Source: a virus. From it: a stretch of 37,415 bases of DNA. Made by a program: the position numbers and the translations under genes. Below the pieces are notes generated by a model. It was not told the DNA's origin. It saw nothing but the letters and a program-made list of their open reading frames with translations, and searched no databases. Positions 12,416 to 36,871 of this stretch are shown here, one piece after another; position 1 is the stretch's first letter; each line of letters begins with the position of its first letter. The DNA lies in the IMG/VR virus record IMGVR_UViG_3300009839_000001. One strand, 5' to 3'.

Positions 12416-12676
12416 ATGAATGTTCATTTTAGCTCGGCAACGGTTGAAAAACAGGCACGGCGCCGGATCAATTACCTAGTTGAACAGGGATTGATTCCAC
12501 ACCCCAACGATCTCCCTTGTCTCGATTGCGGAGACATGCTTTTCGTTCGTGAAAGCAGTCGGCACGAATACGACCATGCGAAGGGATACGAGGGAGCTGA
12601 GCAACTCTACGTCGAGCCCGTGTGTTCGCGATGTCATCACAATCGAGAGGAGGCTCGCTTTGGCGATGCAGCGTGA
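12416..12676 (+). CDS. HNH-like zinc-finger protein (tentative)
   Basis: CLDCG...RHEYDHAKGY...VCSRCHHNRE resembles the CxxC..H..DH..CxxCH HNH layout. Confidence 0.45.
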   Translation: MNVHFSSATVEKQARRRINYLVEQGLIPHPNDLPCLDCGDMLFVRESSRHEYDHAKGYEGAEQLYVEPVCSRCHHNREEARFGDAA

Positions 12677-13646
12677 AGGTTCAGGAATCGCCTGGACTCA
12701 GCAAACTTGGAATCCGATTAGAGGATGCAGCCGAGTATCGACCGGGTGCACGCGGTGCTACGCAGAACGCATCGCTGCGCGGTTTAGTGGGCCCGGGGAA
12801 CCGTACGAAGGCTTGGCCGGCTGGACGAAGGGCCGAGAACCGCGGTGGACCGGACAAGTTCGGCTCGTGGAGGAGCGGCTAGAGGATCCGATCCGCTGGA
12901 AACGGCCGCGCATGATCTTCGTGAACTCCATGAGCGATCTGTTTCACGAAGCTCTGCAGTTCGACCAGATCGCGACCGTGCTCAACGCCATGGAAGATGC
13001 ACCGCAACACGTTTATCAGATCCTCACCAAGCGCGCCGATCGCATGCGCGAGTTCTTCGAATCGTGGATCCAGGCTGGGAAAGACGTACCGGGCAACTGG
13101 TGGATCGGCGTATCGGCTGAAAACCAGGCAACTGCTGAGGCACGGATCCCGCAACTGCAGAACACGCCGGCGCTCGTCCGGTGGGTCTCTCTTGAGCCGT
13201 TGCTCGGTCCGATCACCCTCGGTCATGAGGAACCCGAGCTCGGGTTCGTTTCCTGGCTTGCAGGGATCCAAGGTTGCGATCCGCCGATCGATCCGATCGA
13301 TTGGGTTGTCGTCGGTGGAGAGTCCGGGCCGAATGCCAGACCGATGCACCCCGCTTGGGCGAAAGGTCTCAGGGATCAGTGTGCGAGATCTCGCACACCG
13401 TTTTTCTTCAAACAGTGGGGTGAGTGGGCACCGCACACGCACAACCAACGTCTCGGCGGTGGACTCTTCGTCAAGCCGGATGGCTCTCTCGGAAACCAGG
13501 GTGACTATTGGGCCGGGAGAGCTGCAGCGATGAACAGAGTCGGCAAGCATGCAGCGGGGCGCATGCTCGACGGCTACGAATGGAACTGTTATCCGCTGAG
13601 CTTCCAGTATTTGCGGGCGCCAGCCACGCGTCCGGAGGCCGGCTGA
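12666..13646 (+). CDS. Phage Gp37/Gp68 family protein (DUF5131)
   Basis: ATG 12666. N-terminus GIAWTQQTWNPIRGCSRVSTGCTRCYAERIA is the family hallmark (TWNP..GC..S.GC..CYA). Confidence 0.8.
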   Translation: MQREGSGIAWTQQTWNPIRGCSRVSTGCTRCYAERIAARFSGPGEPYEGLAGWTKGREPRWTGQVRLVEERLEDPIRWKRPRMIFVNSMSDLFHEALQFDQIATVLNAMEDAPQHVYQILTKRADRMREFFESWIQAGKDVPGNWWIGVSAENQATAEARIPQLQNTPALVRWVSLEPLLGPITLGHEEPELGFVSWLAGIQGCDPPIDPIDWVVVGGESGPNARPMHPAWAKGLRDQCARSRTPFFFKQWGEWAPHTHNQRLGGGLFVKPDGSLGNQGDYWAGRAAAMNRVGKHAAGRMLDGYEWNCYPLSFQYLRAPATRPEAG

Positions 13647-14965: not shown

Positions 14966-15352
14966 ATGCCGGCCGTGCCGAAAACCGAGTTGCAGTTCGA
15001 CGTTCCGCTGATCCCGCCTTCGGTCAATCACTACAAAAACCCGAGCCGACGCGGAGGGTTCTATCGCGTCCGGGAGTGCATGGGCTTCAACGATGCGGTT
15101 TGCGTGTTCTCGAAACGCGAGCTCGTGACCGGGCAGTTCTACGAGGTCGAGCTCACGTTCTATCTGCCGCCGGCGAAGTTCCTGGCCTTCGATGCCGACA
15201 ACTTTCTGAAAGTCAGCTTTGACGCCCTGAAGGCTGCAGGCGTTATCCGCGACGATCGGTACATCGTCGATCACCACGTCCACAAGCGCGCAGCCAAGGA
15301 CGCCCAGGACGTGCACACCGCCTATCTGGTGAAAGGAAGGGAACACGTATGA
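14966..15352 (+). CDS. rusA: RusA-family Holliday junction resolvase
   Basis: LIPPSVNHY near the N-terminus and DADNFLKVSFDALKAAGVIRDDRYI (D.DN..K...DAL......DD). Confidence 0.8.
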   Translation: MPAVPKTELQFDVPLIPPSVNHYKNPSRRGGFYRVRECMGFNDAVCVFSKRELVTGQFYEVELTFYLPPAKFLAFDADNFLKVSFDALKAAGVIRDDRYIVDHHVHKRAAKDAQDVHTAYLVKGREHV

Positions 15353-15855
15353 AGAAACCACGCATCAGCGCGGATCCGCCGCTGGTACCGGAGACGCCGA
15401 AAGAAACGAAACCAGCACCGCGCGAGACTCCTACACTGGAGTACCTGGCTGTCCGCTTCACGGATCCTGAACGCATGGACATCGCGGAGCAGCTCGGCCG
15501 CGCTGCGCAAGCACAAGGGGATATCGAGGATCAGAAAAAAGCCCAGGACGCCGAGCACAAAGAGGAACTCGAAGCGGTGAAGCTGCAGATCAAGCGATTG
15601 AGCCGCAAGCTCGCAACCGGTTCCGAGATGCGCAACGTTCAGTGTACCTGGTTACTCGGCGATCCGAAACCCGACGAGAAAACCCTGGTGCGGAAAGATA
15701 CGGGTGAGATCGTTCGCGTCGTTCCTATGCAGGAACACGATTACCAGGAGAACTTGCCTCTCGTGACGGTGCCCGGGAATGGTGCAGATGTTCCACGTGA
15801 AACTCTCGTGCTCGAACCTCCACCAGCGGACGGCAAGAGCGCCGCGGCCAACTAG
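15349..15855 (+). CDS. Hypothetical protein
   Basis: 168-aa ORF with an ATGA overlap start. Charged coiled-coil centre. Confidence 0.55.
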   Translation: MKKPRISADPPLVPETPKETKPAPRETPTLEYLAVRFTDPERMDIAEQLGRAAQAQGDIEDQKKAQDAEHKEELEAVKLQIKRLSRKLATGSEMRNVQCTWLLGDPKPDEKTLVRKDTGEIVRVVPMQEHDYQENLPLVTVPGNGADVPRETLVLEPPPADGKSAAAN

Positions 15856-15893
15856 AAAGGGAGCCATGAAAATCAACGCGGATCGTCGACCTG

Positions 15894-16103
15894 GTGATGC
15901 GCGAGAACGGTCGGGAGTCAGTTATTGAGTGTCGAGTGTGGGAAGGAGCAACGGAGCGCGGAGTCAAAGTGTCGTGCCTGATTCCGCGTATCGCTGCGAA
16001 GCTCGGTCAGGATCACTCACAGTTCGAGGCAGAGCTGCAAGCGCAACCGGCACCGGCGAGCGCCGATACAGTTCAAGCTTTTCCACTTCGGATGATCCTA
16101 TGA
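15894..16103 (+). CDS. Hypothetical protein
   Basis: 69-aa ORF with GTG 15894 or ATG 15897 as start. The RBS-like gaaagggag at 15855 instead serves a 20-codon ORF at 15866. Confidence 0.4.
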   Translation: MMRENGRESVIECRVWEGATERGVKVSCLIPRIAAKLGQDHSQFEAELQAQPAPASADTVQAFPLRMIL

Positions 16104-16585
16104 CGCCAAAGTTCGATGATCGCGGCGCCCGGTTCGCGCGGTTCGCACTGCGAGGCGGACTCACACGGCTCGCTCTCATGTTCAATCCGGCGAAGCGTTT
16201 CACCGGCGCCGAAGTGCAGCAAATTTTGATCGCGGCCGTCATCTCACTCAACCGGCCGAAATTGGAGCTCACGATGCCTGATGCGAACGATCTCGCTGAT
16301 ATTCATCCTGACGTAATCCGCGACATGCTTCTACTCGCGAGCGTCGATGCACCTCTCTCCGACATCGCCGGTTGGACTCCAACACGGTTGGTTGCCGCGG
16401 CGAATTGGGCGCTCGCCATTCACCTCTCGGCGAGTGACAACGTACTAAACGATTTCTGCCGGGCCCACGACGAAGATACGAATTACGATCCTCCGTTCCG
16501 GTGCATCTGCCGGCCACCGAAACCGGAGTTTCTCAATCACTATCCGGTGCCGGCGCCGTTTCCAATGTTGGAGCACGCAAGATGA
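16100..16585 (+). CDS. Hypothetical protein
   Basis: ATGA overlap start at 16100: MTPKFDDRGARFARFALRGG... Confidence 0.5.
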   Translation: MTPKFDDRGARFARFALRGGLTRLALMFNPAKRFTGAEVQQILIAAVISLNRPKLELTMPDANDLADIHPDVIRDMLLLASVDAPLSDIAGWTPTRLVAAANWALAIHLSASDNVLNDFCRAHDEDTNYDPPFRCICRPPKPEFLNHYPVPAPFPMLEHAR

Positions 16586-16687
16586 GCGATCGCAGCGATG
16601 GCAATGTCACGCATCTCGCCGTCGCCAGTTTCATAGAAAACGTGAACTGTCTTTGGTGTCGCAGAGACTACTTTTGAGGTGGTGGTC

Positions 16688-17368
16688 ATGAAAATTAAAA
16701 TCAAGCATCGCTACACCGGGAAACTTATTTTCGAGCACGAAGCCGAGAAGAACACTCTCAGATTGACCCTCGAACACGCTGTTTCACTTAATGCGAACCT
16801 GTCCGGCGCGAACCTGTACGTCGCGAACCTGTCCGGCGCGAACCTGTCCGGCGCGAACCTGTCCGTCGCGAACCTGTCCGTCGCGAACCTGGACGGCGCG
16901 AACCTGGACGGCGCGAACCTGTCCGGCGCGAAGCTGTCCGGCGCGAAGCTGTACGGCGCGAACCTGTACGTCGCGAACCTGTCCGGCGCGAACCTGTCCG
17001 GCGCGAACCTGTCCGTCGCGAACCTGTCCGGCGCGAACCTGTCCGGCGCGAACCTGTCCGGCGCGAACCTGTCCGGCGCGAACCTGTCCGGCGCGAACCT
17101 GTCCGGCGCGAACCTGTCCGGCGCGAAGCTGTCCGGGCAAAGGCCAGTGATCCAGATCGGTCCTATTGGGTCACGCCGTTCCTATCTTTCGGCGTTCATC
17201 ACTGAGAAAGGGCTGCGTCTCCACACCGGATGCTTTTTGGGAACGCGTGACGAATTTGTTAACGAACTCCTTCGCACGCACGGAAGCAATGAGCACGCAA
17301 GCGAGTATCAGTGCGCGCTCGCGCTGATCGATAAGCACGTCGAACTGTGGACTCCAAAGAAAGCATGA
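16688..17368 (+). CDS. Pentapeptide-repeat protein
   Basis: ATG 16688 follows GAGGTGGTGG. About 23 consecutive A(N/K)L(S/Y/D)(G/V) pentapeptides lie between unique N- and C-terminal domains. Confidence 0.9.
   Translation: MKIKIKHRYTGKLIFEHEAEKNTLRLTLEHAVSLNANLSGANLYVANLSGANLSGANLSVANLSVANLDGANLDGANLSGAKLSGAKLYGANLYVANLSGANLSGANLSVANLSGANLSGANLSGANLSGANLSGANLSGANLSGAKLSGQRPVIQIGPIGSRRSYLSAFITEKGLRLHTGCFLGTRDEFVNELLRTHGSNEHASEYQCALALIDKHVELWTPKKA
16793..17136. repeat. About 23 tandem copies of the 15-bp unit gcgaacctgtccggc (near-perfect)
   Basis: Read directly. Variants occur only at tccggc/tacgtc/tccgtc/gacggc and aac/aag. Several other reading frames are open across the array for the same reason (shadow ORFs 16784-17140 minus, 16791-17150 plus). 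Confidence 0.95.
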
Positions 17369-18564
17369 GTTGGGAAATTAAAGTCGGCAACGCGCTCGAC
17401 GTGCTTCGCGAGATGCCTTCGCGATCGGTCGATTGCTGCGTCACTTCGCCGCCTTACTGGAGCTTGCGCGAGTATCCCGTGAACCCCTTGATCTGGGGCG
17501 GAAAGAAAGATTGCCGGCACAAGTGGGTGAAACACTTGCGACCTGCAGCGAATGGAAAAATCAACGGCGTCGCGAACGGTTGGAAGAAAGGTGCGAACAC
17601 CGCAACGCGCACCGCGCTACTCTCTCAATTCTGCGAAAAGTGCCGGGCATGGCGTGGCCAGCTCGGGCTCGAACCGACTCCCGAGATGTACCGATCGCAC
17701 CTGGTGCAGATCTTTCGCCAGGTCCGCCGCATTCTCAAACCCGGTTGCACGCTCTGGCTGAACCTGGGTGACACCTGGTACTCACGCGCCGGGAGTGGAA
17801 AGCGTCTCGGCGGAACGCATCCCGAGCATTCGATCACTCACTATCGCAAACTGCTCGAAGATAGCTCGACCTATCCGGTTATTCCGCCGAACCGCATGCC
17901 GATCGCGAACGGATTGAAGCCGAAGGATCTTGTCGGCGTTCCCTGGCTTGTTGCCTTCGCTCTCCGGGAATCCGGCTGGTGGTTACGCTCCGAAATCATC
18001 TGGTCGAAACCGAACGGAGTGGCCAAGGTTGCAGCGGATCGGCCGGCGGGGATCCACGAGACGATTTTTCTTCTCGCGAACGGCCGGCACTACTTCTATG
18101 ACGAACTGGCGAATCTTGAGCCGAATAGTCCGGTGGAACGCCAGCGCCGCCAGCGTGAAAAGAATCAGGCGCAAGCAAAAGTCTATAAAACGAAACGCGA
18201 TCATGGCCAGTTCTTCCCACCTGGTGCGACCAGCTTTCACACTCGACTCGACAAGCGGATCGAACTATCGGTGAGTGGCGTGCGACGTCGACGCAGTATC
18301 TGGGAGATCGCCGTCACACCATGGAAGGGTGAGCACTCGTCAGTTTTCCCGATCAAGCTTGCCGATATCTGCATTCAGTGCGGAGCTCCGGAAGGCGGGA
18401 CGGTCCTGGATCCATTCTGCGGGACAGGCACTGTCGGGGTTGCCGCTCTCCGGAAGGGGAGGAATTTCATCGGGATCGATCTGGATCCCCACAGTGCGGC
18501 AGTCGCACGTGAGCGCATCACGGCCGATGCTCCACTCTTCAACACCCAGAGGTTTTCCGCATGA
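17365..18564 (+). CDS. DNA methyltransferase (beta-class N4-C / N6-A type)
   Basis: ATGA overlap with the pentapeptide gene stop. Motif IV TSPPYW is near the N-terminus and motif I VLDPFCGTGTVG near the C-terminus. Confidence 0.85.
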   Translation: MSWEIKVGNALDVLREMPSRSVDCCVTSPPYWSLREYPVNPLIWGGKKDCRHKWVKHLRPAANGKINGVANGWKKGANTATRTALLSQFCEKCRAWRGQLGLEPTPEMYRSHLVQIFRQVRRILKPGCTLWLNLGDTWYSRAGSGKRLGGTHPEHSITHYRKLLEDSSTYPVIPPNRMPIANGLKPKDLVGVPWLVAFALRESGWWLRSEIIWSKPNGVAKVAADRPAGIHETIFLLANGRHYFYDELANLEPNSPVERQRRQREKNQAQAKVYKTKRDHGQFFPPGATSFHTRLDKRIELSVSGVRRRRSIWEIAVTPWKGEHSSVFPIKLADICIQCGAPEGGTVLDPFCGTGTVGVAALRKGRNFIGIDLDPHSAAVARERITADAPLFNTQRFSA

Positions 18565-18872
18565 CGATCGCCGAGGTCACGAAGAGATTTGTCGCTGCAG
18601 TAGCGACGGCGGATTTCACGCTTGGGGATCTAGAGCGTGAATTTCGGTTTGTCGTTGTGAACTCTGCGCTCGAACGCTGCAAGGGTAATCAGTGCCGTGC
18701 GGCTCGAGCGCTCGGGATCCATCGTAATACGCTCTCGCGCATTCTGGATGAGATGGCAAGAGCCGGGCGATCACCAAAGATTGTAAAACGCCAGCAACGT
18801 CGCCGGCCCGCGCCCACCGTTCTCTACGATCCCGAAGTTTTGTCACGAATCACAAAAATGGGGGAAGCATGA
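18561..18872 (+). CDS. Fis-type HTH DNA-binding protein
   Basis: ALERCKGNQCRAARALGIHRNTLSRILDEM matches the Fis/NtrC C-terminal HTH pattern (GN...AA..LGI.R.TL). Confidence 0.7.
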   Translation: MTIAEVTKRFVAAVATADFTLGDLEREFRFVVVNSALERCKGNQCRAARALGIHRNTLSRILDEMARAGRSPKIVKRQQRRRPAPTVLYDPEVLSRITKMGEA

Positions 18873-19153
18873 GCACATTGACGCAACGCGAGATCACCTC
18901 CGGCATTAGCAGAAAGGCCCTCGAAAGCCTGCAGCGAAATCGAAATGTGAAACCAGATGCCGAACCGCAGAAAATCGTGATTCTCGAAACCTGGTGCCGG
19001 CAGTTCGTGTTGCTCGACTTCGATCATTTCAACTTTGCCCTGCGAGACACGATCCACCTCAACGATCGGCCGGAGACGGTGATTTTCTATTTGAATAGAA
19101 CCGAGCTCGACGCACTCGTGCGCCGCGGCGAGGAACTTCTGAGGACACAATGA
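18869..19153 (+). CDS. Hypothetical protein
   Basis: 94-aa ORF with an ATGA overlap start. Confidence 0.5.
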   Translation: MSTLTQREITSGISRKALESLQRNRNVKPDAEPQKIVILETWCRQFVLLDFDHFNFALRDTIHLNDRPETVIFYLNRTELDALVRRGEELLRTQ

Positions 19154-19338
19154 GCCCAATCTGGCAGGAAGTTCGGAAACCAGTGATCATGTTCTTTGGA
19201 GTGATCACCGGTTTCTTAATGGGATGCTTCACCGGTTGGGCGGAGCATCACTGCTTTTTTCTTTTTCATCGCTGGGATCGCACGCGCATGTGCACCGATT
19301 CCTGCGTACGGTGCGGCGCGATCAGGTTCAAACGATGA
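19150..19338 (+). CDS. Small membrane protein
   Basis: 62 aa with an ATGA overlap start. Hydrophobic PVIMFFGVITGFLMGCFTGW. Confidence 0.5.
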   Translation: MSPIWQEVRKPVIMFFGVITGFLMGCFTGWAEHHCFFLFHRWDRTRMCTDSCVRCGAIRFKR

Positions 19339-19354: not shown

Positions 19355-20505
19355 GCAATCCCAGACGTTTGTCTGGGTTAGCGACGGCCTTGTTTTTGGT
19401 TCTAGAAAGGAGGACATGATGATTCAGTATCAGTTAAAACTTCGAATGTGCAAGTCACAAGAGCAGAAGTGCGAACAGTTTTTATATCACCTGTCCTCTG
19501 TCTGGAATTGGGCGGTGCGGAAAATAGAACTCAACGCCAAAGACCACATCTATTTTTCCAAGATGGAGTTTCAGAACTTTCTCTCCAACCACAGCGAAAA
19601 GATGGGCATTCCGTCACACACGTTGCAAGGTGTCATCTGTACAGCACATGATGCGTGGAAACGTTGCTTCAAGAAGATTGGTGGCAAACCAAAACTCAAA
19701 GGGATGCGTAACAAGATGTCTAGCATTCCGTTCCCTGACCCCATCAAAGCGCCAAAGGGAAACCGCATCAATCTGCCTGCTCTCGGCTCTGTCCGCTTCC
19801 ACAAGATGGAATTGCCTGATGGCAAGATAAAATGTGGTCGGATTGTTAAGCGTACATCAGGCTGGTATCTGTGCTTGTTTATTGATGCCCAGCCGAAGGT
19901 GATAGAGCGAACGGGGTATGGCGTCATTGGTGTAGATGGAGGATTTAAGGATTTGCTAACGCTCTCCACAGGGGAGAAGATTTCACACCCACGAGAGTTG
20001 GAAGTAGCAGCAGAACGTCTTGCTCAAGCACAGCGTGGGCACGACACAAAGTTAGCAGCACGGATTCAGGAGAAGATTGCGAACAGGCGTAAGGATAGGA
20101 ACCATAAACTGTCTCGTCGTTTGATTGCAGAAAATGTAGTTATCAAGTTTTCAGCGGACAACCACAAAGCGGTTGCTCGTAGATTCGGCAAGAGTGTCGC
20201 TAGTTCAGGGCATTCACAACTTCAGAGGATGCTTGCGTACAAGTCGCCCCAAAGCGGTACGCAGTACTTTGAGATTGCGCCAAAAGATTCCACCAAGACT
20301 TGCTGGGTATGTGGGGAGCCAACTGGACCTACAGGACTCGCAGGATTGTCGGTAAGGCAATGGCGATGTACAACGTGTGGAACGTTCCACGACCGCGACC
20401 AAAACGCTGCGGTCAACACGCTCATTGCTGCGGCAGGATGTGCCGTCGAGGTCTGCATATGAGCGCAGACATAATCAGGAATCGCAGACTTCAGTCTGCG
20501 AGCAT
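19355..20505 (+). mobile_element. IS200/IS605-family TnpB-only insertion (IS1341-like); boundaries approximate
   Basis: Visibly AT-richer block carrying tnpB. Subterminal hairpins cccagac-gttt-gtctggg (19360-19377) and cgcagac-ttca-gtctgcg (20483-20500). No Y1 tnpA ORF. Confidence 0.75.
19416..20462 (+). CDS. tnpB: TnpB (IS605 OrfB) RNA-guided endonuclease-like protein
   Basis: GVDGGFKDL (RuvC-I), zinc finger CWVCG...CTTCG, and HDRDQNAAVNT (RuvC-III). AAGGAGG RBS. Confidence 0.9.
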   Translation: MMIQYQLKLRMCKSQEQKCEQFLYHLSSVWNWAVRKIELNAKDHIYFSKMEFQNFLSNHSEKMGIPSHTLQGVICTAHDAWKRCFKKIGGKPKLKGMRNKMSSIPFPDPIKAPKGNRINLPALGSVRFHKMELPDGKIKCGRIVKRTSGWYLCLFIDAQPKVIERTGYGVIGVDGGFKDLLTLSTGEKISHPRELEVAAERLAQAQRGHDTKLAARIQEKIANRRKDRNHKLSRRLIAENVVIKFSADNHKAVARRFGKSVASSGHSQLQRMLAYKSPQSGTQYFEIAPKDSTKTCWVCGEPTGPTGLAGLSVRQWRCTTCGTFHDRDQNAAVNTLIAAAGCAVEVCI

Positions 20506-36477: not shown

Positions 36478-36678
36478 TCATCCCTTTTTCGAATAGATGG
36501 GCACGAGCTGTGAGTTCGATCCCATCGCCAAGTGCTTCTGAAATCCAAGAGCCTGCCACAAGAACGTGAACGGCTTGCTCTGCAGCTTTCGCCGGCCACA
36601 TTGGTACACGACGCGGTACCCGGTGATCGTGCCGAGTTCCGTCGTCGATCCGTCACTATTGACCGCGAGAAAAGCCAT
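36478..36678 (-). CDS. Hypothetical 66-aa protein
   Basis: High third-position GC when hand-translated. The ATG lies in copy 1 of the 99-bp repeat. Confidence 0.5.
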   Translation of the reverse strand: MAFLAVNSDGSTTELGTITGYRVVYQCGRRKLQSKPFTFLWQALGFQKHLAMGSNSQLVPIYSKKG

Positions 36679-36871
36679 TCGCGAGTTAGATCACTTTCAC
36701 CCTTCGGCCAGTGGCGCGCCGGAGGAAGCGACCGAGTGTGCGTTTCTGTTTCGCGTTGAGCGAGAGGTTCAAGCCATTCGCGAGTTAGATCACTTTCACC
36801 CTTCGGCCAGTGGCGCGCCGGAGGAAGCGACCGAGTGTGCGTTTCTGTTTCGCGTTGAGCGAGAGGTTCAA
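36674..36871. repeat. Perfect tandem duplication, 2 x 99 bp
   Basis: gccattcgcgagttagatcactttcaccc...cgcgttgagcgagaggttcaa is read twice back to back (36674-36772 and 36773-36871). Confidence 0.95.

What the first reader, a model, noticed from the sequence alone, without database searches (positions are those of the whole stretch)
16688..18564. Pentapeptide-repeat gene built from ~23 near-identical 15-bp DNA units and coupled to a DNA methyltransferase
Pentapeptide-repeat proteins normally show degenerate repeats at the DNA level. Here the array 16793-17136 is almost a pure tandem of gcgaacctgtccggc, so several other reading frames are also open across it. That implies very recent expansion or ongoing slippage, which would give variable repeat number and so variable beta-helix length. 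The gene's stop overlaps the start of a beta-class SPPY methyltransferase (ATGA), and a Fis-type HTH gene follows. Qnr/MfpA-type pentapeptide proteins are DNA mimics, so a DNA mimic plus a methylase reads as a two-layer anti-restriction module. That interpretation is inference.
Basis: partly seen in the sequence, partly recalled or inferred. Interest (0 to 1): 0.7.

Follow-up and report, generated by a model that had tools for sequence, protein, structure and literature searches.

The report
Fast-evolving phage pentapeptide-repeat rod protein
A phage gene encodes a rod-shaped repeat protein whose 23 almost identical 15-base units change in number and in their surface amino acids far faster than the rest of the gene. 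This points to an arms-race binding protein, and its neighbouring DNA methylase is an ordinary, unlinked gene.

Summary
Positions 16793-17136 hold 22.9 tandem copies of GCGAACCTGTCCGGC inside a 226-aa pentapeptide-repeat ORF (16688-17368). Its stop overlaps (ATGA) the start of a beta-class SPPY DNA methyltransferase, and a Fis-type HTH gene follows.

The array is not an assembly artefact: an independent ENA assembly that is 99.8% identical carries the same 23 units.

The gene belongs to a large uncharacterised phage family (968 clusters at 50% identity). Members share an N-terminal cap, a very regular beta-solenoid of 3-45 units, and a conserved ~75-aa C-terminal domain with no Pfam or PDB match.

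In 19 arrays, units differ from their own consensus at 503 nonsynonymous but only 39 synonymous sites, and almost all variation falls on outward-facing residues. Silent sites are homogenised within each array. Near-identical phages differ by whole units. This is a coding minisatellite under concerted evolution and diversifying selection.

The "DNA mimic plus methylase anti-restriction module" is not supported. The methylase is not a conserved neighbour, and ATGA overlaps join five consecutive genes here. The protein is basic (pI 9.4) and fails the Qnr and MfpA cut-offs. The same C-terminal domain also follows hexapeptide solenoids. The most likely role is an early accessory protein that binds a host or rival factor; its target is unknown.

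The parts
16676..16682 (+). Shine-Dalgarno-like GAGGTGG, 5 nt upstream of the ATG
   Evidence: Read directly from the sequence
16688..17368 (+). Pentapeptide-repeat protein gene (226 aa): cap, solenoid and C-terminal domain
   Evidence: ORF. Pfam Pentapeptide E=2.9e-43. AlphaFold2 model with mean pLDDT 94.5. The identical protein is P0001 in the JGI data.
16688..16792 (+). N-terminal cap (residues 1-35): beta-hairpin plus helix, motif MKIxIKxRxxGxxxFxxEAExN..LTLE
   Evidence: Model secondary structure E2-7, E13-18, H24-33. The motif is shared by about 15 IMG/VR loci.
16793..17137 (+). Array of 23 in-frame 15-bp units (consensus GCGAACCTGTCCGGC = ANLSG), about 5.75 turns of right-handed quadrilateral beta-helix
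   Evidence: TRF. Unit table: 15 nonsynonymous and 1 synonymous nucleotide differences from the consensus, at unit positions 6, 10, 11, 14 and 15. Units 2-5 are identical to units 12-15, and variant units sit in adjacent pairs. Foldseek matches Np275/276 and synthetic beta1 solenoids.
17138..17365 (+). Short linker and conserved C-terminal domain (residues 151-226): four-strand beta-meander plus two helices. Invariant residues include GPIGS, GC(F), F190, E206-Y207, H217, W221.
   Evidence: phmmer finds 968 representative proteins at E<=1e-3. Matches phrog_20532 at E=3.9e-11. No Pfam match. Stand-alone model pLDDT 89. No PDB fold match, best E=0.39. BFVD matches phage solenoid proteins at E=1e-6. 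Invariant columns.
17365..18564 (+). Beta-class N6/N4 DNA methyltransferase (SPPY ... FxGxG), 399 aa. An ordinary phage orphan methylase and an operon neighbour, not a conserved partner.
   Evidence: PF01555 at 126 bits. phrog_67. PADLOC MTase_II. PDB relatives include TTHA0409-like, N4-cytosine MTases, CcrM, RsrI and PvuII. Relatives in 548 phage records.
18561..18872 (+). Small Fis-type HTH protein (103 aa)
   Evidence: PF02954 HTH_8 at E=6.5e-9
14966..19338 (+). Co-directional early/recombination operon that holds the gene: RusA, orf168, two small ORFs, PRP, MTase, HTH, orf94, orf62. Five of the junctions are ATGA overlaps.

Best explanation
The gene encodes a member of a large, uncharacterised phage accessory-protein family. 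Each member has a small N-terminal cap, a rigid and very regular beta-solenoid rod (here 23 pentapeptide units), and a conserved ~75-aa C-terminal alpha/beta domain.

At the DNA level the rod is a coding minisatellite. Replication slippage or unequal recombination between 15-bp units keeps adding, deleting and shuffling units. As a result all units in one genome share their silent sites (concerted evolution) and the rod length varies between close relatives. Selection holds the inward-facing Ala and Leu fixed, which preserves the fold, and favours amino-acid diversity at the three outward-facing positions.

Shown here: the architecture, the turnover, the excess of nonsynonymous change and the repeat-number polymorphism.

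Inferred: the protein is made early, from the recombination/replication operon. Its variable surface, anchored or oligomerised by the conserved C-terminal domain, binds a host or competitor protein in an arms race. That could be inhibition of a defence factor or of a DNA-processing enzyme.

The adjacent methyltransferase is an independent orphan methylase. It may protect the phage DNA, but it is not part of a dedicated module with this protein.
For: Array and ORF.

Not an artefact: an independent 99.8%-identical assembly has the same 23 units.

Family:
- 23 of 80 IMG/VR loci share the C-terminal domain.
- 968 representative clusters match at E<=1e-3.
- Unit numbers run from 3 to 30 in 203 full-length proteins, and reach 39 and 45 in IMG/VR loci. 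There is no preference for whole turns (n mod 4, p=0.11).

Selection pattern:
- 39 synonymous versus 503 nonsynonymous differences from each array's own consensus in 19 arrays, where about 29% synonymous is expected. Variation is concentrated at unit positions 4, 10, 11, 13 and 14.
- Counting each distinct variant type once gives 10 synonymous versus 115 nonsynonymous, P=7e-9.

Concerted evolution:
- In L005/L006, 36.5% of same-amino-acid codons differ silently in the flanks, but none of 197 array codons do.
- L013 uses GGC for all 11 Gly codons and L011 uses GGT for all 11.
- The array's codons are not the operon's preferred codons, log10 P=-52.7.

Polymorphism:
- Members of 90%-identity clusters with identical flanks differ by 1-12 units and by reshuffled surface residues.
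- L102 and L103 have 360/360 identical non-repeat bases, 18 versus 17 units, and one Ala/Asp change.
- Literature precedent: phages L and ST64T are >99.9% identical yet differ by a 15-bp deletion of one pentapeptide repeat in an early-left-operon gene (bioRxiv 10.1101/2020.10.05.325894).

Structure: full model pLDDT 94.5. The C-terminal domain has no PDB or Pfam match but recurs after pentapeptide, hexapeptide and YdcK-type solenoids in phages.

Context: the neighbours are early genes such as repressors, RecE/RecT, Erf, ligase, ThyA, RusA, and DNA polymerase in cultured phages.
Against: - No experiment or annotated homologue gives a function. Cultured-phage members (Pseudomonas phage Amjad_SA, EBPR siphovirus 1 gp3) are annotated as hypothetical proteins.
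- The nonsynonymous excess is measured between paralogous units that are copies of one another, so counts are not independent events. A mutational bias cannot be formally excluded.
- Most contigs come from short-read metagenome assemblies, which can miscount tandem units, so some of the length polymorphism could be an assembly effect.
- In this window's own lineage the single close relative has the same unit number.
- The binding-partner and arms-race step is inference only.
- The outward-facing assignment of the variable positions rests on the published pentapeptide-repeat geometry. It was not measured on model coordinates.
Confidence: 0.6

Rival explanations
1. The pentapeptide protein is a Qnr/MfpA/Ocr-like DNA mimic that blocks restriction enzymes, and it is translationally coupled to a protective methyltransferase as a two-layer anti-restriction module.
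For: The fold is the same as in MfpA, Qnr and AlbG. There is an ATGA overlap with a beta-class methyltransferase. The gene sits in an early operon. Family arrays are on average slightly acidic, -0.17 charge per unit.
Against: - The methyltransferase is not a conserved neighbour: a tblastn with this window's methylase hits 1 of 80 IMG/VR loci, about 4 kb away, and only 1 of 87 neighbouring ORFs from 19 orthologous loci matches a methyltransferase family.
- ATGA overlaps occur at five successive junctions in this operon.
- The window protein has pI 9.4 and net charge +6, the most basic of 192 family members.
- It is far below the Qnr and MfpA cut-offs.
- The family's conserved module, the C-terminal domain, is also attached to non-pentapeptide solenoids.
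- The pentapeptide proteins McbG and QnrB did not relieve BREX when tested (PMC7261183).
- No paper in the searched library links a phage pentapeptide protein to anti-restriction.
Confidence: 0.08
2. It acts like MfpA or Qnr on a type II topoisomerase. It would bind host gyrase or topoisomerase IV to modulate supercoiling during phage replication, or to protect against gyrase poisons.
For: All functionally characterised small bacterial pentapeptide proteins of this size act on gyrase (established knowledge; PMC10886550 is listed). In cultured phages and metagenomic relatives the gene lies next to DNA replication or recombination genes.
Against: - It fails the Qnr and MfpA family cut-offs.
- The helix is uninterrupted, with no Qnr-type loops.
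- Free variation from 3 to 45 units, and a surface that changes between identical-flank relatives, fit poorly with a conserved essential target such as gyrase.
- The closest sequence and fold matches are cyanobacterial or synthetic solenoids, not Qnr or MfpA.
Confidence: 0.15
3. The array is a selfish or neutral minisatellite expanding inside a dispensable gene. On this view the rod is just a tolerated spacer, and the amino-acid differences reflect relaxed constraint or a mutation bias rather than selection.
For: Unit number is unconstrained (3-45, with no preference for whole turns). Frameshifted arrays occur, as in phage PAS7 and P0146. The unit is stop-free in all six frames.
Against: - Relaxed constraint predicts about 29% synonymous differences; the observed figure is 7% of sites (39 of 542) and 8% of variant types (10 of 125).
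- Ala and Leu at the core positions are 94-96% conserved.
- The reading frame, cap and C-terminal domain are intact in hundreds of diverged relatives.
Confidence: 0.12

Closest known systems
Pentapeptide-repeat proteins (Pfam PF00805), especially Np275/Np276 of Nostoc and the synthetic 'beta1' solenoids derived from them
   Same: Both have the A(D/N)LXX repeat and a predicted right-handed quadrilateral beta-helix. They are the best sequence matches (E=1e-55 to 1e-39) and the best fold matches. Both have very regular, loop-free repeats.
   Different: This protein has a phage-specific N-terminal cap and a conserved C-terminal domain absent from any solved structure. At the DNA level its array is a near-perfect minisatellite.
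MfpA / Qnr / AlbG / McbG (topoisomerase-directed pentapeptide proteins, proposed DNA mimics)
   Same: Same fold class and a similar size.
   Different: It scores 44-45 bits against curated cut-offs of 240-500. It has no Qnr-type loops. The window protein is basic. It carries a different C-terminal domain, and its length is highly variable.
P22-like phage early-left-operon pentapeptide gene orf232 (phages L and ST64T)
   Same: A phage early-operon pentapeptide gene in which near-identical phages differ by a 15-bp, one-repeat indel.
   Different: No Salmonella phage carries the C-terminal domain found here, so it is a different family. No function is known for orf232 either.
PRDM9 zinc-finger arrays (coding minisatellites)
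   Same: Evolutionary behaviour only. Both are tandem, nearly identical coding units with concerted evolution, copy-number polymorphism, and positive selection confined to the recognition residues (PMC3890296 abstract).
   Different: The fold, organism and mechanism are unrelated. Here the ligand is unknown.
Ocr / ArdA DNA-mimic anti-restriction proteins
   Same: These are also early-expressed accessory proteins of phages or plasmids with an elongated shape.
   Different: They are strongly acidic DNA mimics. This protein has pI 9.4. There is no sequence or fold relationship, and PADLOC finds no match for the pentapeptide protein.

Membership tests
Pentapeptide-repeat family (PF00805) | Tandem A(D/N)LXX pentapeptides scoring above the Pfam gathering threshold | tested here: met
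   145.4 bits against a cut-off of 20.2, E=2.9e-43. There are 23 in-register units.
Pentapeptide-repeat family (PF00805) | Right-handed quadrilateral beta-helix fold | tested here: met
   AlphaFold2 model with pLDDT 94.5 and one short strand per unit. Foldseek matches 2j8k, 4yei, 5dra, 3du1, Qnr and MfpA with probability 1.0. This is a prediction, not an experimental structure.
Qnr family | Score above the NCBIfam NF033086 cut-off (240 bits) | tested here: not met
   44.6 bits
Qnr family | Loops A and B interrupting the helix, which are required for quinolone protection (established knowledge from QnrB1 structures) | tested here: not met
   The 23 units run in unbroken register with no insertion.
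MfpA | Score above the NCBIfam NF000349 cut-off (360 bits) | tested here: not met
   43.9 bits
DNA-mimic anti-restriction proteins (Ocr/ArdA type) | Strongly negative surface that imitates the DNA backbone | tested here: not met
   Array net charge +1, whole protein +6, pI 9.4. The family median pI is 5.6 and 26% of arrays are neutral or positive.
DNA-mimic anti-restriction proteins (Ocr/ArdA type) | Inhibition of restriction enzymes | not testable with these tools
   This needs in vitro or in vivo restriction assays.
Dedicated two-gene module with the methyltransferase | Conserved gene adjacency across relatives | tested here: not met
   The window's methylase finds a relative in only 1 of 80 loci, about 4 kb away. 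Only 1 of 87 neighbouring ORFs is a methyltransferase. The pairing is present only in the near-identical genome L082.
Phage 'solenoid plus C-terminal domain' family (phrog_20532 / phrog_7964 / phrog_31265) | Conserved C-terminal domain with GPIGS...GCF.G...F...TH...EY | tested here: met
   phrog_20532 at E=3.9e-11, phrog_31265 at E=5.6e-35. 968 representatives by phmmer. Invariant columns listed.
Beta-class N6/N4 DNA methyltransferases (the neighbouring gene) | PF01555 match, with motif IV (S/D/N-PP-Y/F) upstream of motif I (FxGxG) | tested here: met
   126 bits against a cut-off of 26.7. SPPY lies at residues ~29-32 and DPFCGTG at ~345-351. PDB relatives are beta-class enzymes. The target base (m4C or m6A) was not determined.
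Diversity-generating retroelement target | Nearby reverse transcriptase, a template repeat, and adenine-specific substitutions | tested here: not met
   No ORF that was scanned gave a reverse-transcriptase match; not every ORF was scanned. The window's unit variants are C>G, T>G, C>A and G>T, none at adenines.
Phase-variable contingency locus | A repeat unit whose gain or loss shifts the reading frame | tested here: not met
   The unit is 15 bp, so indels stay in frame.

The most novel reading that the evidence does not exclude
Phages carry a widespread 'adaptive binder' scaffold. A beta-solenoid rod has an outward-facing surface written by a coding minisatellite. Unequal recombination reshuffles a small alphabet of surface-residue variants and changes the rod length. 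This lets the phage rapidly retune recognition of a host defence protein or a rival-phage protein. The conserved and so far unknown C-terminal domain (invariant Cys, conserved His and Glu-Tyr) supplies the constant effector or oligomerisation function. The logic resembles PRDM9 zinc-finger arrays or variable lymphocyte receptors, and it has not been described for phages or for pentapeptide-repeat proteins.
Probability: 0.3. Interest if true: 0.8.

Novelty: new variant of a known kind. Interest (0 to 1): 0.58.

Why it matters
Pentapeptide-repeat proteins are common in phage genomes, yet none has an established role there.

This locus shows that a large phage family uses the repeat as a rapidly remodelled surface. 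Unit number and surface residues change even between phages whose flanking sequence is identical, and the array is attached to a conserved domain of unknown fold family. That pattern is typical of proteins at a host-virus interface.

The family is therefore a concrete, testable candidate for a new class of anti-defence or host-takeover factors, and cultured carriers are available (Pseudomonas phage Amjad_SA, EBPR siphovirus 1).

It also gives a practical warning. These arrays are open in all six frames and are mis-annotated on the wrong strand, as with the 'modular polyketide synthase' of phage PAS7. Short-read assemblies may also miscount their units.

Finally, gene adjacency plus an ATGA overlap is not enough to call a functional module in a tightly packed phage operon.

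Tried and rejected
- Word-indexed protein search with the 77-aa C-terminal domain found nothing. The exhaustive phmmer search was needed.
- An exact 24-nt anchor just upstream of the array found no contig in metagenome contigs. More population variants of this exact lineage could therefore not be collected. P0001 is said to occur on 3 contigs (longest 94 kb), but only the window's own contig was retrievable.
- A PDB fold search of the whole model returned only pentapeptide proteins. A search with the isolated C-terminal domain gave no significant PDB match.
- A Pfam scan of 20 C-terminal domains at E<=1 gave nothing meaningful. PF25296, precomputed for some relatives, turned out to be a 'Decapeptide repeat' model inside the array.
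- PADLOC had no defence-system match for the pentapeptide protein or the small neighbours.
- Rfam gave no hit in the window. No tRNA was found. Promoter and terminator scans were at chance level.
- A DGR explanation was rejected: no reverse transcriptase, and the changes are not adenine-specific (see membership test).
- A preferred number of units per whole helix turn was rejected (n mod 4, p=0.11).
- Codon bias as the cause of uniform silent sites was rejected.
- Three literature searches found no functional study of phage pentapeptide proteins as anti-restriction, anti-defence or gyrase factors. A fourth found no description of concerted evolution in pentapeptide arrays.
- PHROG scans of 20 other large ORFs gave almost no annotation beyond an integrase. 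The host of the element therefore remains unknown. Family members occur in Betaproteobacteria, Sphingobium, Roseomonas, Acidobacteria and other genomes.
Full report
**1. Observation**

- Tandem Repeats Finder reports 16793-17136 as 22.9 copies of a 15-bp unit (GCGAACCTGTCCGGC), with 94% matches and a score of 583.
- In the frame of the ORF 16688-17368 (226 aa) this reads as 23 consecutive A-N-L-S-G pentapeptides. The protein matches Pfam Pentapeptide at E=2.9e-43.
- All six frames are stop-free across the array, and two alternative ORFs are listed there.
- The stop of the gene overlaps the ATG of a 399-aa PF01555 methyltransferase (ATGA at 17365-17368). That enzyme has SPPY near its N-terminus and FxGxG near its C-terminus, which is the beta-class order. 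A 103-aa HTH_8 (Fis-type) gene follows with another ATGA overlap.
- The array's codons (CTG for Leu, TCC for Ser, GCG for Ala) are not the preferred codons of the surrounding operon. Independent codon choice would give log10 P = -52.7. The uniformity therefore reflects common descent of the units.

**2. The array is not an artefact**

The window is essentially a whole JGI metagenome contig (3300030659, Ga0316363_10000723, 37,419 bp).

An independently assembled ENA contig (ERZ25039587 contig_201130, locus L082) is 99.8% identical over 7 kb. It carries the same 23 units. The only difference inside the array is G/T at 16866, which changes unit 5 from Val to Gly. A 3-bp insertion adds a Tyr in the cap. 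In this lineage the copy number is reproducible and has been stable over that short divergence.

**3. The element**

The gene sits in a co-directional operon: FtsK-gamma-like winged helix, RusA, three unknown ORFs, the pentapeptide gene, the methylase, the HTH gene, two small ORFs, a TnpB, and a serine recombinase. A tyrosine integrase and a DUF5131 gene lie upstream. An SLT lysozyme and tail-fibre-like genes lie on the other strand. The element is a poorly annotated temperate phage, and the pentapeptide gene lies in its early recombination/accessory region.

**4. The gene family**

A scan of IMG/VR returned 80 loci. Of these, 23 share the ~75-aa C-terminal region and about 15 share the N-terminal 33 residues.

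An exhaustive phmmer search with the C-terminal 79 residues found 968 cluster representatives at E<=1e-3 and 206 at E<=1e-10. The domain is always C-terminal and is almost always preceded by pentapeptide units.

The common architecture is:
- a cap with the motif MKIxIKxRFxGxVLFxxEAExN..LTLE;
- n units of A-(N/D/Y)-L-x-x;
- a short linker;
- the motif RPxxQIGPIGSR..Y..AY.T..G....GCF.G...F...L...HG.N.H..EY.AA..LI..H...W.

Unit number n runs from 3 to 30 in 203 full-length proteins, and reaches 39 and 45 in IMG/VR loci. There is no preference for whole helical turns (n mod 4, p=0.11).

Cultured carriers exist: Pseudomonas phage Amjad_SA and EBPR siphovirus 1 gp3. Both are annotated as hypothetical proteins. 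Prophage copies occur in Noviherbaspirillum, Azoarcus, Accumulibacter, Sphingobium, Roseomonas and other genomes.

**5. Structure**

With a 56-sequence alignment, AlphaFold2 gives mean pLDDT 94.5. The model has a beta-hairpin plus helix cap (residues 1-33), one short strand per pentapeptide through residue ~148, then a four-strand meander and two helices (154-221).

PDB sequence and fold searches hit only the solenoid part. The best matches are Np275/276 and the synthetic beta1 solenoids; Qnr, MfpA and AlbG match much more weakly.

Modelled alone, the C-terminal domain reaches pLDDT 89. It has no significant PDB fold match (best E=0.39) and no Pfam match.

Against BFVD it matches phage proteins at E=1e-6 to 1e-3 with TM about 0.8. 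In those proteins the same domain follows pentapeptide, hexapeptide (left-handed helix) or bactofilin/YdcK-type solenoids. I confirmed this by translation and Pfam for three cases:
- Bacillus phage Bobb (Hexapep/LbH);
- Paenibacillus phage Pd_22F, where Pfam found no family and the solenoid-like repeat is seen only by eye in the translation;
- a Manatee Spring podovirus (YdcK solenoid with near-perfect GNAWVY/GDARVY repeats).

The constant module of the wider family is therefore the C-terminal domain, and the type of solenoid is interchangeable.

**6. How the array evolves**

Within the window, 15 of the 16 nucleotide differences from the unit consensus change the amino acid (N>K, S>Y, S>D, G>V). 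Variant units sit in adjacent pairs, and units 2-5 are repeated exactly as units 12-15. These are footprints of local duplication.

Across 19 arrays there are 503 nonsynonymous and 39 synonymous differences from each array's own consensus, where about 29% synonymous is expected. The differences concentrate at unit positions 4, 10, 11, 13 and 14. These encode residues i-1, i+1 and i+2, which face outward in the published pentapeptide-repeat geometry. The Ala and Leu codons are almost invariant, including their third positions.

Counting each distinct codon variant once per array gives 10 synonymous versus 115 nonsynonymous types (P=7e-9).

Silent sites are homogenised within arrays but not between genomes:
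- L005 and L006 differ silently at 36.5% of same-amino-acid codons in the flanks, but at none of 197 array codons.
- L013 has GGC at all 11 Gly codons and L011 has GGT at all 11.

This is concerted evolution combined with maintained or selected amino-acid diversity on the exposed surface.

**7. Direct repeat-number polymorphism**

Inside 90%-identity protein clusters, members with identical caps and C-terminal domains differ in length by multiples of five residues. Examples are 204/209, 199/214, 210/170, 228/218/168 and 229/239/194. Their surface variants are also reshuffled.

At the DNA level there are two related phage contigs from one sample (L102 and L103; the neighbouring regions are 94-98% identical). 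They have 360/360 identical bases in the non-repeat parts of the gene, but 18 versus 17 units and one Ala/Asp change in the array.

A published precedent exists. Phages L and ST64T are >99.9% identical yet differ by a 15-bp deletion of one pentapeptide repeat in an early-left-operon gene (bioRxiv 10.1101/2020.10.05.325894).

One caveat applies. Most contigs are short-read assemblies, which can miscount tandem units.

**8. The anti-restriction module idea**

- The methylase is not a conserved neighbour. A tblastn of the window's methylase hits 1 of 80 loci, about 4 kb away. Among 87 flanking ORFs from 19 orthologous loci, one is a methyltransferase. The others include repressors, RecE/RecT, Erf, a ligase, thymidylate synthase and an integrase.
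- In L102 and L103 the gene is the first of an operon leading to RecT/YqaJ. In cultured phages it follows DNA polymerase.
- ATGA overlaps join five successive gene pairs here, so the overlap is simply how this operon is packed.
- The methylase itself is an ordinary phage beta-class enzyme with relatives in 548 phage records.
- The window protein has pI 9.4, net charge +6 and array charge +1. It is the most basic of 192 family members, whose arrays average only -0.17 charge per unit. This is poor DNA mimicry.
- It scores 44.6 bits against the Qnr cut-off of 240, and 43.9 against the MfpA cut-off of 360. PADLOC gives nothing.
- McbG and QnrB did not inhibit BREX when tested (PMC7261183). None of the library searches retrieved a study assigning an anti-defence role to a phage pentapeptide protein.

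**9. Most likely mechanism**

Shown:
- a capped solenoid rod with a novel conserved C-terminal domain;
- rod length and surface residues that turn over by unit gain, loss and shuffling;
- a conserved core;
- strong enrichment of nonsynonymous variation on the surface;
- a location in the early or recombination region.

Inferred:
- an early accessory protein whose variable surface contacts a host or competitor protein under antagonistic co-evolution;
- a C-terminal domain that provides a constant function, such as oligomerisation, anchoring or an effector role. Its invariant Cys, conserved His residues and Glu-Tyr could form a metal or active site, which was not tested.

I give about 0.6 to this overall account. 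The evolutionary and structural part alone is about 0.85, and the binder/arms-race part about 0.4.

Rivals:
- gyrase-directed, Qnr/MfpA-like: 0.15;
- neutral or selfish minisatellite in a dispensable spacer: 0.12;

**10. Novelty and verdict**

Pentapeptide-repeat proteins, phage copies of them, and single 15-bp indels are already known.

I could not find the following described:
- this family's C-terminal domain;
- its combination with different solenoid types;
- the coding-minisatellite behaviour, with a roughly 13:1 nonsynonymous-to-synonymous ratio among units.

PRDM9 zinc-finger arrays (PMC3890296) are the nearest analogue in evolutionary behaviour only.

I rate this a new variant of a known kind, with interest 0.58.

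Noticed in passing
L096 (Escherichia phage vB_EcoP_PAS7, OQ921331.1) about 1425-1928: The pentapeptide array on the + strand switches reading frame part-way through, from a frameshift, a sequencing error or recoding. The record annotates the antisense ORF of the array as 'modular polyketide synthase'. This is a mis-annotation made possible because the repeat is open in all frames.
   Followed up: partly
L099 598-1719 (Bacillus phage Bobb); L100 985-1722 (Paenibacillus phage Pd_22F); L101 1132-1713 (podovirus MW202674): The same C-terminal domain follows non-pentapeptide repeats: hexapeptide in L099, YdcK-type in L101, and a repeat region without a Pfam match in L100. In L101 the 18-bp units are also nearly perfect (GNAWVY/GDARVY), so the fast-turnover behaviour may extend beyond pentapeptide arrays.
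   Followed up: partly
Protein P0146 (metagenomic family member): The array passes through two alternative reading frames (EPTWL..., SQPGW...) and returns to the pentapeptide frame before the C-terminal domain. This may be an assembly error or a genuine frameshifted variant.
   Followed up: no
window 36672-36871: A perfect 99-bp x 2 tandem duplication (100% identity, TRF score 400) lies near the end of the contig, inside overlapping ORFs.
   Followed up: no
window 19416-20462; L082 2590-3516 and 4306-5139: A TnpB (RNA-guided endonuclease family, NF040570 at 192 bits) sits inside the phage early operon with no adjacent TnpA. The 99.8%-identical relative L082 carries, upstream, an IS1595-type transposase gene and a gene with a weak C5 DNA-methylase match. 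The comparison shows unaligned stretches in that region of both contigs, so whether the window lacks these two genes was not checked.
   Followed up: no
window 17365-18564 (methyltransferase residues ~50-200): The methylase carries a ~140-residue insertion relative to the PF01555 profile, between motif IV and the rest of the catalytic core. The insertion contains Cys/His clusters (DCRHKW ... FCEKCRAW) that look like a zinc ribbon and may be its target-recognition region.
   Followed up: no
window 12549-13646: A DUF5131 (phage Gp37/Gp68-like) protein gives a weak match to 'radical SAM mobile pair protein A' (TIGR04471, E=6.6e-10, below cut-off).
   Followed up: no
L097 1360-2193 (Caulobacter phage RapA gp021); L098 1297-2205 (Ralstonia phage DLDT_So2 ORF30): Pentapeptide genes of cultured phages have a similar N-terminal cap but different C-terminal domains. 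RapA shows the same pattern (28 units, 2 synonymous versus 33 nonsynonymous differences). The Ralstonia array is more degenerate (18 versus 57).
   Followed up: partly
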